Assembly: GCA_015486535.1 (NCBI GenBank)
Contig: WFRK01000016.1
Location: 1-61,006 of the forward strand
Reading direction: 5' to 3'
Source: Candidatus Microgenomates bacterium
GTDB lineage: Bacteria; Patescibacteriota; Microgenomatia; UBA1400; PJMF01
DNA: 61,006 bases
The notes beneath the pieces were generated by a model. That model did not search any database, was not told the DNA's origin, and worked only from the letters and a program-made list of their open reading frames with translations. Positions 52,253 to 57,617 of this stretch are shown in pieces (within the stretch, counting starts at the first letter, position 1; the number at the start of each line of letters is the position of its first letter). Both the position numbers and the translations under genes were made by a program.

Positions 52253-53002
52253 TTATTGACCTCGTTTACTAGGTAAATTAGCTAGCAGCAGCTGCTTATC
52301 TTTTTCGTTATAAATCCTTTTTAGTTGCCCATCAAACATTTCGATGGTAGTTTTGGCGAACTTAATGTACTCCAAGTCATGAGTCACCATAAGAAAAGTT
52401 TTGTTAGTTTTCTTATTTAGATTATCCAAAACTTGCATTAATTCTTGACCAGAACGATAGTCCAAATTGCCTGTTGGTTCATCAGTAATTAAAATGTCTG
52501 GATTAGTAATTAATGCCCGAGCAAGGGCTACTTTCTGTTGCTGGCCGCTGGATAATTCACTGGGCAAGTACTTTGCCCATTGCATCATACCAACAAGTCT
52601 AAGCATTTCTTTTGCTTTAGTTAAGCGAATAGTTTTACTCTCACCCAAAAGAGATAAGGGAAAGGCCACATTTTTGATTACATTCAAAGCTCTAATCCAA
52701 CGGGGTTGTTGATAAACCATTCCCATATTTTGTTTACGAAAGTTAGCCCGTTCGTCCTCGTTCCAACGACGATAAAGGTCTTTACCGAGGACTGTGACAT
52801 AACCTTCAGTTGGTTCTTCTAGACCTAGAATTACATGCAATAAAGTCGATTTGCCACATCCTGAAGGACCAAAAATTACAGCGAAATCACCAACTCGAAT
52901 TTGTAAGTTGATATTTTTTAAAACTTGCACGTCTTGAATGCCAACATGAAAAACTTTATTGAGATTGACAATTTGAATGGCAATTTCCTTATCAATGTTC
53001 AT
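52253..53002 (-). CDS. ABC transporter ATP-binding protein (MacB/LolD/FtsE family)
   Basis: Walker A GPSGCGKST, LSSGQQQKVALARAL, Walker B ILITDEPTGNLD. Its ATG overlaps the stop of the upstream giant ORF as ATGA. Confidence 0.9.
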   Translation of the reverse strand: MNIDKEIAIQIVNLNKVFHVGIQDVQVLKNINLQIRVGDFAVIFGPSGCGKSTLLHVILGLEEPTEGYVTVLGKDLYRRWNEDERANFRKQNMGMVYQQPRWIRALNVIKNVAFPLSLLGESKTIRLTKAKEMLRLVGMMQWAKYLPSELSSGQQQKVALARALITNPDILITDEPTGNLDYRSGQELMQVLDNLNKKTNKTFLMVTHDLEYIKFAKTTIEMFDGQLKRIYNEKDKQLLLANLPSKRGQ

Positions 53003-56000
53003 TGTTTTAATTCTCCTAGAAAACCAAATGCTTGCTGCAAACCACCAATAACCAGATTAAGAGCATTGGCAGTAGCCTTTGGGGTAATGGTAACTGTATC
53101 AACAGAGTAGCCGTCATTACCAGCAATATCTTTAGAAATTGCTCGCAAATGATAGACCTTAGAAGTAGCTAAATTGGAAATTACGACTACGTGATTATAG
53201 GTTAAGTTACTTTCTTGCTGAGTACGTTGCGCATAACTACTGCCGGTACCTTCTCCGAATTCAATTTGAGCGGTAGCAGGTTCGTCAGTGTTCCAGGTGA
53301 CCACAATTTGTCCCATTGACTCTTGAGCCGTAGTAGCAGTTTGAGGAATAGCTGTACCCTCAACTCTCAGATCAGTTATAAGTGGTGGTCTCGTGTCGGT
53401 GGCGGTGGTAAACTTTTGTCTATCAGAAACTGCTTCATTACCAATTTTATCCCGCCCTTTAACAATCAAAATATAGGGCGTATTGGCAAATAGACCACGA
53501 ATAATCATGCGATGGAGTCCTTTAGTCAAAGTAACGTTTACCTCATCCCTTGCCTTGTCTGATTTTCCTTCTGGATAGTAGGTAATAATTGAGGAAATCT
53601 CTGTGTTAGTCTGCCAACTAACCAAAACTGTTGGTTGGGCCGCACCCCGTACCTGTTGAATTCGCACCTTAGAAATTTTCGGCCGTGGCAAAGTCTTAAA
53701 ATCTAAAATTGTCCCCTCATATTCATCACCTTCACTATCGTAAGTATTTATCTTGTAGTAATATTTCGCTCCATCGTCAAGACCAGTCAGCTCAGTTGTG
53801 TAAGTTGTTTCACTGGTTGAGGTGGAAACTTCCTTAGCACCACCAAAGCTGGTAGTTTTACCATAATATATTTTCACCTTTGAAGCGTTTTTAGTCGTAT
53901 ATTTAATGATGGCTGAAGATAAACCAATGCTGTCTACCGTCACATCTTTAACGGTTGGGGCTGCATTAGTGGTAAAACTTTTTTCATCCGATGTTCCTGT
54001 ATTGCCATCTTCATCAGTCCACTTAGCCTTATAGTAATAGGTCGTTCCAGCTGATAAATTAGTTAAAGTAATTGAATGATCAGTCGTTTGACCAGATTTA
54101 GAAGGTTCTTCATCATAATAACTTCCTGATGAAGAACCATATTGAATCTTGCTGTCTGAGTTTCTACTGGTTGACCAATTTACTGTAGCTTTTTTAGTGG
54201 TAATAGAAGAAGTAGTTGGCCCTGAGGAAAGAGAAGCAGCTGAAGTATACTTTCCATCAGGATAACCGGAAACAGTCGAAGAAACGGCCGAACAATTATT
54301 GGCGCTATCACAAGCTTTAACGCAATAGTAATAAGTTTGTTGATTTAAACCAGTGTCGGTATAAGCGGTACCGGCGGTCGAACCAAGTTCAGTAAATGAG
54401 GAAAAATTAGAAGAACAGGAAGCTGAACTAGTTGTTGAACGGTAAACTTTATATGCTGATACCCCCGCACCTACATCAGATGGAGTTTCCCACGAAACCG
54501 TCAATTTCCAATTAGAGCTAACTTTAATGGAAATATCGGCCAAATCCATGCTTCGCGGTACACCAGGAGCGGAAGTATTGGCCGTAAAGTTAACACTGGC
54601 ATAAGAAGAATAATTGACATTGCCTGCCTCGTCTTTAGCCACCACATAAAAGGTGTTTGTCCCCGGCTGAGTGGCATAGGCATCGGCCGACAAAGAAGCA
54701 CTACTTGTCCAGGTACAAGTAGAGGCGGAAGGAACAGAATTAATTGTATAACAATAAGACAAACCAGACAACTGACCAGTATAAGTCGCTGGTGCTTCCC
54801 AAGAAAAAGCAAAAGAATTAGTTGTATTGCTGGAAGGAGAAACGGCTAAATTTTGCGGCGTAGTTGGGGCATCAGCATTGTATTTTAAAATACCGGTAAT
54901 ATAGGTCGTACTGACATTACAGGCATTATCCCAGGTTCTGAGATAAAAAGTGTTTTCTCCGGTAGACAAGGAATCATTGGTAGAATTCAAAGTATAAGAA
55001 CCAACCGTAATGAGATCATTACAATCCTCATTACCACTATGATTGGCACCATACCACGTCCCGTTTGGACCAATTCGATACTGATAACCTTTGATACCTG
55101 AGGCAGAGTCACTACTTGAGGCCGAACCCGAAGTCGCCCAATAAATAGTAAAATCGTTGATATTAGCTTGATAGCCTTGGGGGGCGGAAAGACCTGATGG
55201 ATTTGATGGTACCGTATTGTCAAATTTAAATTGAAATTGAGCACTGGAACCAGAGAAAATATTACCACCATTGTCCACTGCTTTGATATTCAAATAGTAA
55301 GGATCGCTGGAGCTAGTTAGCCAAGTGCTTCCTTTATAGGACGAGGTAGCAAAATCAATTGAAGTGGAAGAAACAATAAACTGACAGGTAGTGCCACTAG
55401 TAGAAACAGGTGAAGTTCCCAAAAGACCTTTGGCGGTGGCAGGATCCCCATTGGGATCTGTACCTAGATACAAACAATAACCCTTCAATCCTGAACCACC
55501 ACTATTATCCGCTCCCGCCGTCCAACTAAAATACGGCGAAGAACCATTAGTCCAACCGTTGTCGGAAACGGAAGAACCACCATTAGTTTTGGTCATAGTA
55601 AGAGAAGAAGCATTGGTTGTTGGGCTGGTAGTATCGGTTGTCAAACCAATTTTAAGGCTGGTAATGGCAGGCATATCAACACCACCAAAACTCATAATCG
55701 CTTTGATGGATATTTTTTGGCTGGTTACTGGCAAAGCCTGCATTGCTGCCTGGGTTAGTTGAGCGGCCGTATTAGCATAAGTTGTTGAATCACTGATAGC
55801 ATTGGTCCAAGTCCCACCAGTGTAGTACTGCCAACGGGAACCAGTGGTATAACTACAGGCCGATCCATTATCAAGGCAAATCTGGTAAACCACTGATGCG
55901 TTACCCGAAGCACTGGCTGTTTCGACAAAAGAATCCCAAGTAACTACCTGGGCATTAGAATAAGCAGTGGTATTATAAATACTATAAGTGCCACTCTTGG

Positions 56001-56418: not shown

Positions 56419-57617
56419 GTAGAGAGTGTAAATGCCCCTGCGTAGGAAGTGCTACCCCAACCCCCGCCACGAAGGAACACCCGATTGGAGGAAGCACCAT
56501 TATAAGTGTAAATGCGACCAACGCCCTGATTGGCATTATAGCCACTGTCCAAGGGACGAATAATATCGTAAGACAAATCACCATAATCAGTAATGGCCGT
56601 ATGTTCAATCCAACGCCAACCAGCCGCACCACCATCTGAAGGAAGATTATTCGTTAAAGTATCATCACTGTCTCGCATCACATGCTCCCAAACGTTACCG
56701 GCCAAATCCCAAACAACACTGCCGTTAGAAAGACTCAAAGTACGTACCTGATTACCCACCGATCCCGATTGGCCACTGGCTGTATTGGTTGGACAACCTG
56801 ATGGATTTTCCGTTCCTGGATCACCGTCAGTATAAGCACAACGATAATCACCTGTGTCGGTAGTTGAAGCCGGTCTGGCTTTTGCGGGCGAGTTATCATT
56901 ATGACCAGCAAAAAGATAACCCAAACCAACATTTCCACCACTCCAATTTGTTGCTTGACTTTCAACATTGCGAGCAATTGTCATCCATTCAGGGTTCGTA
57001 ATTAAATGAGCAGTACTACCATTAAGAGTAATTGCAGCACACCTAACCTTAGCATTATCATGACTAATATTAGCGATTGGATAACCGGAAGCAACTGAAG
57101 TCACCTGTCGATTATTAGTTGAAATACAAGGGGTAGTGCTGTCTGAGTAAGTATGATAACCACTGTCAGGACTAGTCAAACCTGTCGTTAAGTCGGAGGT
57201 AGCGACGCATTTTGCCTCGTACTTCATCACTAAAAAGTTGCTGGTGGAATAAGCGGTGTTGCCAGGCACTTCCACCCAACCAGCGGGAGGGATGGCGGCC
57301 ACATTCCATGAACTATTATCGTCGTTGAAAGCAGAATTAGCTAATTTATTAACTCCACTGATTGGATGAGCTCCATTAGTGTCTACCGCAACAAAATTGG
57401 CATCATAGGTATAGTCGCTGGCGGTTGAAACATTAAAAGTCCAAGTCTTACTGCTATCGTTAAGTGCAAATACTTTGGGCAAAATGATTTTGGTAACGGT
57501 TAAGTACGAACCGACTGCAATTCCAGTAAAAACTAAAAACGTAGTCAACAAATTGAACTGAATGCGTGAAAAATGCCAGTGAGGAGCAAAAAAGTAGTCT
57601 TTGAATCGAGATAACAT
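56355..57617 (-). CDS. N-terminal part of the DGR variable protein: signal anchor plus an FGE-sulfatase/C-type-lectin-fold domain carrying the VR
   Basis: TM segment LLTTFLVFTGIAVGSYL. FLVMKYEAK, DLAGNVWEHV and FLRGGGW are FGE-sulfatase/CLec-type motifs common in DGR targets. The last 22 aa are out-of-frame VR sequence. Confidence 0.85.
   Translation of the reverse strand: MLSRFKDYFFAPHWHFSRIQFNLLTTFLVFTGIAVGSYLTVTKIILPKVFALNDSSKTWTFNVSTASDYTYDANFVAVDTNGAHPISGVNKLANSAFNDDNSSWNVAAIPPAGWVEVPGNTAYSTSNFLVMKYEAKCVATSDLTTGLTSPDSGYHTYSDSTTPCISTNNRQVTSVASGYPIANISHDNAKVRCAAITLNGSTAHLITNPEWMTIARNVESQATNWSGGNVGLGYLFAGHNDNSPAKARPASTTDTGDYRCAYTDGDPGTENPSGCPTNTASGQSGSVGNQVRTLSLSNGSVVWDLAGNVWEHVMRDSDDTLTNNLPSDGGAAGWRWIEHTAITDYGDLSYDIIRPLDSGYNANQGVGRIYTYNGASSNRVFLRGGGWGSTSYAGAFTLSTCFGLVPIRVSMLGFAVPVIP
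56363..56483 (-). repeat. DGR variable repeat (VR)
   Basis: 121 nt. Identical to the TR except for 17 substitutions, all at TR adenines, and a 2-nt insertion at 56422-56423. Confidence 0.9.

What the first reader, a model, noticed from the sequence alone, without database searches (positions are those of the whole stretch)
52999..57617. A 2-nt insertion inside the VR splits what reads as one ~1538-aa DGR target, so the VR is internal rather than C-terminal
Seen directly: relative to the TR, the VR has two extra bases. TR ACACTC-AACTTG corresponds to VR ACACTC-TC-TACTTG. The insertion sits at plus coordinates 56422-56423, inside an AGAGAG run.

Upstream of the insertion, ORF 56355..57617 is in the TR-defined frame (..FLRGGGWGSTSYAGAFTL). 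Downstream of it the ORF reads out of frame (STCFGLVPIRVSMLGFAVPVIP-stop).

The TR-defined frame instead continues as YLFWVSTNTGLNVGFRCSSDPVAISQ... It stays open for 1139 more codons, which is ORF 52999..56418. The listed start of that ORF is just a TTG inside the VR.

Removing the 2 nt gives one protein of 398+1+1139 aa. Its order is signal anchor, FGE/CLec domain with the VR at about residues 371-410, CBM-like jelly roll, then about 8 FN3 repeats.

Established knowledge: DGR mutagenesis gives substitutions, and VRs usually sit at the extreme C-terminus of the target.

Inference, three options:
- A consensus or assembly artefact in a hypervariable region.
- A genuine RT-slippage indel that has inactivated or split the target.
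- A population-level on/off state.

In every case, a VR followed by more than 1100 aa is an unusual DGR target architecture.
Basis: partly seen in the sequence, partly recalled or inferred. Interest (0 to 1): 0.75.

Follow-up and report, generated by a model that had tools for sequence, protein, structure and literature searches.

The report
Frameshifted internal DGR variable region
A bacterial "targeted-mutation" retroelement has written a 2-base insertion into the variable patch of its own giant surface-protein gene, cutting it in two; the insertion is real, the error is of a known kind, and the mid-gene position of the patch is unusual but conserved in relatives.

Summary
The minus strand carries a complete diversity-generating retroelement (DGR): bAvd, template repeat (TR), reverse transcriptase (RT) and variable repeat (VR). 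VR differs from TR at 17 positions, all TR adenines, plus 2 extra bases at 56422-56423, next to the TR codon AAC.

Deleting the 2 bases gives one 1538-aa ORF. It aligns end to end (49-65% identity) with uninterrupted 1460-1626-aa genes in other Patescibacteria genomes. [quoted passage not shown] It sits in a conserved avd-TR-RT-target-ABC ATPase-MacB/FtsX block.

The insertion is not a one-off assembly glitch. Four assemblies of this organism, in two SNP haplotypes, carry the identical VR and insertion.

Across 37 related loci with a TR, 8 carry frameshifting VR indels. All 8 touch TR AAY codons, and two hit the same codon as here. This matches the RT-slippage indels reported by Wu et al. 2018.

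Best reading: a genuine, recent, DGR-made null allele that a new retrohoming event could repair. Whether it serves as an on/off state cannot be tested without reads. A GC-rich hairpin, probably the DGR target-recognition element, lies inside the coding sequence.

The parts
59178..59519 (-). bAvd accessory gene of the DGR (113 aa)
   Evidence: Pfam PF22296 bAvd, E=2.8e-24. Orthologues sit at the same relative position in about 20 related loci.
59022..59140 (-). Template repeat (TR), 119 nt with 34 adenines. It reads in frame as VFLRGGNWNNTSNTGAFTLNLNWDSTNTNNNVGFRCSSD.
   Evidence: Repeat pair with VR, alignments and base counts. It is the only other copy of the 3' block in the window.
57726..58850 (-). 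DGR reverse transcriptase (374 aa). It contains IGNLTSQ (the DGR-type IGxxxSQ motif) and YMDD.
   Evidence: Pfam RVT_1, E=3e-23. The motifs are read from the translation. The SQ motif as a DGR signature is from PMC3521204.
56355..57617 (-). 5' fragment of the split target (420 aa). It holds the N-terminal membrane anchor and the CLec-type domain. The last 22 codons are out of frame.
   Evidence: Homologues. The CLec fold rests on the AF2 model of homologue P0004, which matches TaqVP 5vf4.
56363..56483 (-). Variable repeat (VR), 121 nt, at about residues 379-418 of the 1538-aa reconstructed protein. It has 17 A-site substitutions relative to TR.
   Evidence: It is identical in four assemblies.
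56422..56423 (-). 2-nt insertion (TC, or equivalently CT at 56421-56422) next to the TR codon AAC. It shifts the frame and splits the gene.
   Evidence: The homologous codon also carries +1 insertions in L105 and L115.
56309..56327 (.). GC-rich inverted repeat CCGGTCGC-GAA-GCGACCGG, 35 nt past the end of TR/VR homology and inside the codons for SGREATGG. It is probably the DGR target-site hairpin/cruciform.
   Evidence: DNA fold -10.2 kcal/mol, z=-2.5. Fifteen of 21 DGR-linked relatives have a GC-rich inverted repeat of at least 5 bp downstream of VR, 14 of them at this position and with different stem sequences. For comparison, Guo et al. 2011 (PMC3240598) report 7-10 bp GC stems 4-34 bp after VR.
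52999..56418 (-). 3' fragment of the split target (1139 codons in the TR-defined frame). It holds the end of the CLec domain (..NVGFRCSSD), a CBM-like beta-sandwich, a further beta domain, about 8 FN3-like repeats and a conserved C-terminal peptide ALNLVIGGLQQAFGFLGEL.
   Evidence: Gene callers start it at TTG 56301, giving 1100 aa.
52253..53002 (-). ABC transporter ATPase. Its start overlaps the target's stop codon by 4 nt.
   Evidence: Pfam ABC_tran, E=1.9e-33. It is the conserved next gene in about 20 related loci.
50179..52209 (-). MacB/FtsX-type ABC permease (676 aa).
   Evidence: Pfam MacB_PCD and FtsX. Conserved synteny.

Best explanation
The locus is a chromosomal DGR of a Patescibacteria (Microgenomates-type) bacterium. 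Its target is normally one protein of about 1540 aa, anchored by its N-terminus. The order is membrane anchor, CLec-type ligand-binding domain containing the VR, CBM-like beta-sandwich, about 8 FN3-like domains, and a conserved C-terminal peptide. The gene is followed directly by a MacB-type ABC transporter.

In this organism the last mutagenic retrohoming event (or one of the last) copied TR into VR with the usual adenine substitutions. It also added 2 extra bases where the RT crossed the TR codon AAC (CTC-AAC-TTG), which is template slippage at a misincorporation-prone adenine site.

The result is a real frameshift allele. The N-terminal piece loses the last core strands of the CLec fold (..GFRC). 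The 1139-codon remainder has no anchor or signal sequence and no credible start of its own. The target is therefore most likely switched off.

The lesion is young, because the downstream frame is still fully open. It is in principle reversible. TR, RT, Avd, the VR 3' end and the hairpin are intact, so a new retrohoming event would overwrite VR with a correct-length copy.

Shown: the insertion, its reproducibility, the ancestral single ORF, the A-site signature, and the recurrence of such indels at AAY codons in relatives.

Inferred: the RT as the source of the insertion, loss of function, and reversibility.
For: 1. DGR parts: bAvd and RVT_1 hits; TR/VR pair with 17 of 17 substitutions at TR adenines plus a 2-nt length difference.

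2. Deleting the 2 nt gives a 1538-aa ORF. It aligns along its full length at 49-65% identity with 11 uninterrupted orthologues. Fourteen genome loci and many metagenome loci have continuous ORFs of about 1540 aa.

3. The same VR and insertion occur in four assemblies. These fall into two haplotypes that differ at 9-10 SNPs elsewhere over 12-15 kb.

4. In an ascertainment that does not depend on VR integrity (the search pattern lies in the CBM domain), 8 of 37 TR-bearing loci have non-3n VR indels. They are the window, L014, L015, L024, L027, L091, L105 and L115. The N-terminal and GFRC motifs are in different frames in the five genome-set cases. All 8 indels touch an AAY codon of the TR. The window, L105 and L115 hit the homologous CTC/CTG-AAY-TTG codon. 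About 31% of TR junctions touch an AAY, so 8 of 8 by chance is about 8e-5.

5. Wu et al. 2018 report TR/VR length differences in 25 of 372 DGRs, 11 of them frameshifting. In that study 74% of indels were adjacent to AAC, which the authors attribute to RT slippage (PMC5758913).

6. Orthologous DGRs with an internal VR are active. L008 and L010 are identical over 12,492 nt except for 13 differences, all inside VR.

7. Retrohoming can restore missing VR bases from TR (PMC12875486).

8. All broken relatives but L024 (585 codons) keep an open tail of 1124-1153 codons where the contig allows. This points to recent or transient lesions.
Against: No reads were available. The allele frequency of the insertion within the population, and the presence of in-frame VR variants, are therefore unknown.

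The four assemblies may derive from one sample series. Two of them (ENA ERZ23495671 / SAMN12239303 and Logan SRR10312495) differ by a single SNP.

The insertion turns CTCT into CTCTCT, so ordinary replication slippage after an A-to-T substitution would give the same sequence.

VR is identical in both haplotypes while 9 SNPs accumulated elsewhere. This DGR has therefore not rewritten VR recently, so reversibility is only potential.

Loss of function of the two fragments is inferred, not measured.
Confidence: 0.75

Rival explanations
1. Assembly or consensus artefact. The population's VR is hypervariable, and the assembler stitched variants into a sequence with 2 spurious bases. The real gene would be intact.
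For: VRs are known to be hard to assemble. MAG consensus sequences can mix alleles. No read data could be inspected. About 30% of related loci have broken VRs, which could in principle reflect a systematic problem.
Against: Four assemblies give a base-identical VR and insertion: the window, an ENA scaffold, a Logan contig built by a different pipeline, and another NCBI MAG. The two haplotypes differ at 9-10 SNPs elsewhere. Alignments to the window over 12-15 kb contain no gaps, so the assemblies are not indel-prone. De Bruijn mixing of substitution variants does not create length changes.
Confidence: 0.07
2. The insertion is genuine but independent of the DGR. After retrohoming produced ..ACACTCTACTTG.., ordinary replication slippage expanded CTCT to CTCTCT.
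For: The inserted dinucleotide extends a short CT repeat to (CT)3. The outcome cannot be distinguished from RT slippage at the sequence level.
Against: Two-unit dinucleotide repeats are very poor slippage substrates. All 8 frameshifting indels in the family lie at TR AAY codons, and two others lie at the same codon without forming CT repeats (L105 AGTTTTG, L115 ATTTTTG). No indel was seen in 12-15 kb of flanking sequence between haplotypes.
Confidence: 0.12
3. The split is functional. Either two separate proteins are made, or a -1 ribosomal frameshift in the 56451-56355 overlap (for example on ACU UGU UUU GGG) rebuilds the full-length protein. This would make the locus a regulated or recoded gene.
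For: The two frames overlap by about 32 codons. A U-run (UGU UUU G) just after the insertion would allow P-site tRNA-Phe to re-pair in the -1 frame (sequence). The downstream ORF is fully intact.
Against: There is no canonical X XXY YYZ heptamer and no conserved downstream structure. Orthologues are continuous, so no recoding signal is conserved. Broken relatives need shifts of different sign at different places. The downstream piece lacks a signal or anchor, and its first possible starts are TTG codons inside the VR or inside the first strand of the CBM domain. The upstream piece loses the conserved GFRC strand.
Confidence: 0.04

Closest known systems
Canonical DGRs (Bordetella phage BPP-1 Mtd; Legionella LdtA; Treponema TvpA; Thermus TaqVP)
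   Same: An Avd-TR-RT cassette, adenine-specific TR-to-VR differences, a VR inside a CLec-type fold, and a GC-rich inverted repeat just past VR. The best structural match of the homologue model is TaqVP 5vf4.
   Different: VR is not C-terminal. About 1120 residues follow it (CBM-like domain, about 8 FN3 repeats, C-terminal peptide). The post-VR cis element therefore lies within coding sequence. The hairpin loop is 3 nt (GAA), not the 4-nt GRNA reported for phage DGRs (PMC3240598). The target sits in a conserved block with a MacB-type ABC transporter.
Non-canonical DGR mutagenesis: VR indels adjacent to AAC (Wu et al. 2018, NAR, PMC5758913)
   Same: A TR/VR length difference that is not a multiple of 3, located directly next to an AAC codon of the TR, causing a frameshift. 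It is attributed to RT slippage.
   Different: In C-terminal VRs such a shift only rewrites the last few residues. Here it removes about 1120 residues. The frequency in this family (8 of 37 loci) is about 9-fold higher than the 11 of 372 reported, although the two datasets were ascertained differently.
Short CLec-CBM DGR targets of Patescibacteria (e.g. P0015 in GCA_053526315.1, locus L004, 612 aa)
   Same: The same CLec domain, the same ..GFRCASDPVAI.. junction, and the same CBM-like domain after the VR. L004 is an intact DGR with only A-site differences and a hairpin at the same place.
   Different: These end right after the CBM-like domain, about 128 aa past GFRC. They lack the FN3 tail. 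L004 has a different cassette order (target-avd-TR-RT) and no adjacent ABC transporter within the fetched flank.
Phase-variable contingency loci (simple-sequence-repeat frameshift switches)
   Same: A reversible frameshift in a surface-protein gene would give on/off expression.
   Different: There is no long repeat tract, only (CT)3. The proposed source and the proposed repair of the shift are retrohoming events, not replication slippage. Switching has not been shown here.

Membership tests
Diversity-generating retroelement (DGR) | Reverse transcriptase of the DGR type (RVT_1 domain, IGxxxSQ motif, YxDD) | tested here: met
   RVT_1, E=3e-23. IGNLTSQ and YMDD are read in the translation. Motif definition from PMC3521204.
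Diversity-generating retroelement (DGR) | TR/VR repeat pair whose differences fall on TR adenines | tested here: met
   17 of 17 substitutions at TR adenines. There is one TR and one VR in the window.
Diversity-generating retroelement (DGR) | Accessory variability determinant (Avd) | tested here: met
   PF22296 bAvd, E=2.8e-24.
Diversity-generating retroelement (DGR) | GC-rich inverted repeat (hairpin/cruciform) downstream of the VR 3' end | tested here: met
   8-bp stem at 56309-56327, 35 nt after VR. GC-rich inverted repeats occur downstream of VR in 15 of 21 DGR-linked relatives, 14 of them at this position. Its function was not tested.
Diversity-generating retroelement (DGR) | VR lies in a C-type-lectin (or Ig) fold of the target | tested here: inconclusive
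   Pfam gives no FGE-sulfatase/CLec hit for the window protein. Homologues give weak PF03781 hits. The AF2 model of the 57%-identical homologue P0004 (pLDDT 81.8) best matches the DGR CLec protein TaqVP. The window protein itself was not modelled.
Diversity-generating retroelement (DGR) | VR at the C-terminal end of the target ORF (typical, not obligatory) | tested here: not met
   About 1120 residues follow VR in the reconstructed ORF and in at least 14 intact orthologues.
Diversity-generating retroelement (DGR) | Ongoing diversification: VR differs between otherwise near-identical genomes | tested here: not met
   For this organism, VR is identical in four assemblies and two haplotypes, with SNPs only outside VR. 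The feature is met for an orthologous element: all 13 differences between L008 and L010 lie in VR.
RT-slippage VR indels (Wu et al. 2018) | TR/VR length difference located next to an AAC/AAY codon of the TR | tested here: met
   The insertion lies between CTC and AAC of the TR. All 8 frameshifting indels in the family touch an AAY.
Programmed ribosomal frameshift | Slippery heptamer plus a stimulatory structure, conserved among orthologues | tested here: not met
   No X XXY YYZ heptamer in the overlap. Orthologues are continuous ORFs.
Simple-sequence-repeat phase variation | Long homopolymer or short tandem repeat tract at the switch site | tested here: not met
   Only (CT)3 at the site.

The most novel reading that the evidence does not exclude
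In this Patescibacteria family the DGR may do more than vary a binding pocket. The VR sits in the middle of a 1540-aa gene. The RT often slips at AAY codons, and many TRs carry an in-frame TAA. Retrohoming would then repeatedly switch the whole distal 1100-aa part of the surface protein off and on again. It might also affect expression of the downstream MacB transporter through polarity. This would be a retroelement-driven form of phase variation. About 30% of natural loci were caught in the off state.
Probability: 0.18. Interest if true: 0.72.

Novelty: new variant of a known kind. Interest (0 to 1): 0.5.

Why it matters
It corrects the annotation. Two "hypothetical proteins" (420 and 1100 aa) are one disrupted gene for a surface protein of about 1540 aa.

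It documents a conserved and widespread DGR target design in Patescibacteria with a mid-gene VR. The post-VR hairpin is written into the codons of an inter-domain linker. This is a counter-example to the idea that VRs must be C-terminal so that cis elements can be intergenic (PMC8144416).

It shows that DGR mutagenesis carries a real cost. Frameshift and nonsense alleles occur in roughly 30% of sampled loci of this family. That figure bears on how often DGR targets are silent in nature, and on engineering DGRs for directed evolution.

The conserved link to a MacB/FtsX-type transporter gives a starting point for working out what these diversified proteins do in episymbiotic bacteria.

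Tried and rejected
- Exact look-up of the window RT in the contig index found nothing. The twin protein P0121, found through cluster membership, gave the other assemblies.
- An exact 30-mer just downstream of VR found nothing in JGI metagenome contigs, so no further same-species samples came from there.
- A second homologue search with the post-VR 479 aa, meant to find same-species in-frame alleles of about 1538 aa, returned only hits at 36-71% identity and not even the window protein. 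It was uninformative.
- A profile search of PDB sequences with the 12-member orthologue alignment gave only a weak titin FN3 hit. Pfam on the window's CLec and CBM segments gave nothing at E<=1. Fold assignment therefore rests on the AF2 model of a homologue.
- A Shine-Dalgarno check for a start of the downstream ORF is uninformative. Only 9 of 46 long ORFs in the window have an SD-like motif.
- L115 versus L030 looked like on and off alleles of one DGR because their TRs are nearly identical. The loci are only 81-87% identical, so they are different species.
- "TR lost 2 nt rather than VR gained 2" was rejected. The TR has the family's 26-codon RGG..GFRC spacing.
- The 4-nt gaps in the L083 and L086 alignments lie upstream of true TR/VR homology and were ignored.
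- Paul et al. 2017 (PMC5436926) is not held in the library, so I could not check whether this target family was described there.

Full report
**1. What is in the sequence**

The minus strand of 50.2-59.5 kb carries a complete diversity-generating retroelement (DGR) and its target. The parts are:
- A bAvd gene at 59519..59178 (PF22296, E=2.8e-24).
- A 119-nt template repeat (TR) at 59140..59022.
- A reverse transcriptase (RT) at 58850..57726 (RVT_1, E=3e-23). It has the DGR-type IGNLTSQ motif and YMDD.
- A 121-nt variable repeat (VR) at 56483..56363.

These are the only two copies of the repeat in the window.

TR and VR differ at 17 positions, all of them TR adenines (34 A in the TR), plus a length difference. 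The repeat finder splits the pair into two blocks spaced 2657 and 2659 nt apart. The alignment shows TR ACACTC--AACTTG against VR ACACTCTCTACTTG.

The 420-aa ORF 57617..56355 follows the TR-defined frame until ..AGAFTL. It then runs out of frame for 22 codons. The TR frame continues in the 1139-codon ORF 56418..52999. Deleting the two bases gives a 1538-aa ORF without stops. An open frame of that length has a chance probability of about 6e-33 at this base composition. The only correction is that VR covers about residues 379-418, not 371-410.

**2. The single-gene reading is the ancestral state**

A homologue search with a query spanning the junction found many Patescibacteria proteins that run straight through ..GFRCxSDPVAISQSFSS.. 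into the next domain.

I then scanned one genome per GTDB species with a pattern located in the post-VR domain. This choice makes ascertainment independent of VR integrity. The scan returned 58 loci. Fourteen of them hold one continuous ORF with 375-485 aa before GFRC and 1125-1153 aa after it. Eleven of these orthologues align with the reconstructed window protein over its entire length at 49-65% identity. Invariant residues lie on both sides of the junction and out to the C-terminal peptide ..ALNLVI..AFGFLG.L. Metagenome contigs add many more.

Shorter relatives of about 600 aa end right after the post-VR domain. One of them, L004, is an intact DGR with VR at residues 444-491 of 612 and only A-site differences. 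An internal VR is therefore a conserved property of this family and not a by-product of the frameshift.

**3. Domains**

Pfam finds fn3 and Pur_ac_phosph_N-type domains in the tail, but no CLec/FGE hit in the window protein. Homologues give weak PF03781 hits.

An AlphaFold2 (AF2) model of homologue P0004 was built. P0004 is 57% identical to the window protein across the query. The model has mean pLDDT 81.8. Its best match in the PDB is TaqVP (5vf4), a DGR variable protein with a C-type-lectin (CLec) fold. The C-terminal ~130 residues of the model match carbohydrate-binding modules (CBMs) 27, 61, 16, 4 and 22.

Eight FN3-like W..Y.Y repeats can be read in the tail.

**4. The insertion is real**

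The 420-aa fragment has a twin that differs by one residue (P0121). It occurs in ENA ERZ23495671 scaffold_52 (63.4 kb) and in a Logan assembly of SRR10312495. A look-up of the neighbouring ABC ATPase found a further NCBI MAG contig, GCA_027006925.1.

All three align to the window without gaps over 12-15 kb. They differ from the window at 4-10 SNPs, none of which is in VR. VR and the 2-nt insertion are base-identical in all four assemblies. A chance assembly artefact is therefore unlikely. I could not inspect reads, so the within-population allele frequency is unknown.

**5. Where the insertion comes from**

The insertion lies directly at the TR codon AAC (CTC-AAC-TTG).

Among 37 non-redundant family loci in which a TR was found, 8 have VR indels that are not multiples of three:

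| Locus | Indel |
|---|---|
| window | +2 |
| L014 | -2 |
| L015 | -1 |
| L024 | +1 |
| L027 | +1 |
| L091 | +1 |
| L105 | +1 |
| L115 | +1 |

One further locus, L097, has an in-frame +3. In the five genome-set cases the N-terminal MKYEAK motif and the GFRC motif are in different frames.

All 8 indels touch an AAY codon of the TR. The window, L105 and L115 hit the same homologous codon. L015, L024, L027 and L091 cluster at the AAT-TGG-AAT-AAY site. About 31% of TR junctions touch an AAY, so 8 of 8 by chance is about 8e-5.

This is the pattern described by Wu et al. 2018. They found TR/VR length differences in 25 of 372 DGRs, 11 of them frameshifting. In that study 74% of indels were adjacent to AAC, and the authors attributed them to RT slippage (PMC5758913). 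A slippage model for bRT errors is also discussed in PMC12875486.

The frequency here (8/37) is about 9-fold higher than 11/372 (Fisher p=8e-5). The two datasets were ascertained differently, so this comparison is only indicative.

Additional null alleles arise because many TRs in the family carry an in-frame TAA just before the RGG motif. The corresponding VR codons are TAG in L014 and L104, TGA in L069 and L091, and TAA in L115. L016 has TGA at the conserved Trp in both TR and VR. In total 11 of 37 loci are broken inside VR. All but L024 (585 codons) keep an open downstream frame of 1124-1153 codons where the contig allows. The lesions are therefore young or transient.

**6. Consequence and reversibility (inferred)**

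The 420-aa fragment loses the conserved ..NVGFRC strands of the CLec fold. The 1139-codon remainder has no anchor or signal sequence. Its only possible starts are TTG codons, one inside VR (56418) and one inside the first strand of the CBM-like domain (56301, chosen by gene callers). Shine-Dalgarno motifs are rare in this genome (9 of 46 long ORFs), so their absence here says nothing. I conclude that this is a null allele.

TR, RT, Avd, the VR 3' end and the hairpin are intact. Retrohoming has been shown experimentally to restore missing bases from TR (PMC12875486). A new retrohoming event could therefore repair the frame.

That orthologous elements are active with an internal VR is shown by L008 and L010. 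They are identical over 12,492 nt except for 13 differences, all within VR. In the window's organism, by contrast, two haplotypes that differ at 9 SNPs share the same VR. No rewriting has occurred since they diverged.

**7. Cis element inside the ORF**

Thirty-five nt past the end of TR/VR homology lies CCGGTCGC-GAA-GCGACCGG at 56327..56309. It is the only inverted repeat found in 56250-56500. It folds as DNA at -10.2 kcal/mol, z=-2.5.

L004 has GCCGCCGGC-GTT-GCCGGCGGC at the same place. Fifteen of 21 DGR-linked relatives have a GC-rich inverted repeat of at least 5 bp downstream of VR. In 14 of them it sits at this position, and their stems have different sequences. Five relatives without a detected DGR have none.

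The repeat encodes the linker SGR-x-A(A/T)GG, which is a loop in the AF2 model. It matches the target-site hairpin/cruciform of Guo et al. 2011, which has 7-10 bp GC stems 4-34 bp after VR (PMC3240598). The difference is a 3-nt loop here.

Roux et al. 2021 argued that VRs are C-terminal because only then can such elements be intergenic (PMC8144416). This family shows the alternative.

**8. Rivals**

- Assembly artefact (0.07) is countered by the four concordant assemblies.
- DGR-independent replication slippage of CTCT to CTCTCT (0.12) cannot be excluded from sequence alone. It does not explain the AAY-specific recurrence in relatives.
- A functional split or a -1 recoding event (0.04) lacks a slippery heptamer and any conservation.

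**9. Comparison with the known, and novelty**

The element passes the DGR membership tests for RT, Avd, the A-specific TR/VR pair and the hairpin. It fails the typical (not obligatory) C-terminal VR feature. About 87% of VRs lie at the ORF end in a recent survey (PMC11661182).

The frameshift itself is a known class of DGR error.
- The conserved target of about 1540 aa with a mid-gene VR.
- The hairpin embedded in coding sequence.
- The conserved avd-TR-RT-target-ABC ATPase-MacB/FtsX block.
- The high fraction of broken VRs.

I rate it a new variant of a known kind, with interest 0.5.

The most novel reading not excluded is that retrohoming acts as an on/off switch for the distal 1100 aa, a retroelement-driven phase variation. 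I give it a probability of about 0.18.

Noticed in passing
window 50179-59519; L007-L032: The gene order avd-TR-RT-1540-aa target-ABC ATPase-MacB/FtsX permease is conserved in about 20 Patescibacteria loci at 44-63% protein identity. In the window the ATPase start overlaps the target's stop codon by 4 nt. This suggests an operon and a functional link between the diversified surface protein and a MacB-type transporter.
   Followed up: partly
L014, L022, L024, L030, L069, L091, L104, L115 (TR and VR): Many TRs of the family carry an in-frame TAA at the codon just before the RGG motif. Intact VRs have TTA or TGT there. Several VRs have TAG, TGA or TAA, which are nonsense alleles created or retained by adenine mutagenesis. 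The window's TR has CTT at this codon and is not affected.
   Followed up: partly
L016:5999-6118 and TR L016:851-970: Both TR and VR have TGA where all relatives have the conserved Trp codon TGG (..GG-x-W..). It is either a TR point mutation copied into VR, or a hint of non-standard UGA decoding in that MAG.
   Followed up: no
L008 vs L010 (12,492 nt each): Two genome records are identical except for 13 differences, all within VR (6023-6097). This is a clean natural example of DGR activity on an internal VR in a 1530-aa target.
   Followed up: yes
window 59691-60952 (minus strand): Directly upstream of avd lies a gene pair that overlaps by 4 nt. It encodes an HATPase_c-like protein (322 aa, weak Pfam hits) and a STAS-like DUF4325 protein (98 aa). 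The pair was not found next to the orthologous DGRs, and its function is unknown.
   Followed up: partly
window 52999-53070 (C-terminus of the target); alignment A4: The last ~25 residues (..TANALNLVIGGLQQAFGFLGELKQ) are among the most conserved parts of the 1540-aa family. They are hydrophobic or amphipathic, so they could be a sorting, anchoring or transporter-docking signal.
   Followed up: no
L003, L004, L100 and proteins P0002-P0015: A short form of the family (about 470-630 aa) ends right after the CBM-like domain. Other members (P0010, P0014, P0048, P0080) carry different C-terminal extensions. The CLec-plus-CBM pair behaves as a module to which different tails are attached.
   Followed up: partly
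record titles of L007, L008, L014, L016, L019, L021 and others: Several MAG records that carry this typical Patescibacteria locus are titled 'uncultured Gammaproteobacteria' or 'Pseudomonadales'. These are probably mislabelled records.
   Followed up: no
window 5026-5459 (minus strand), 20655-20726, 36926-36999: The Rfam scan found a tmRNA gene and two tRNA genes. They are unrelated to the finding.
   Followed up: no
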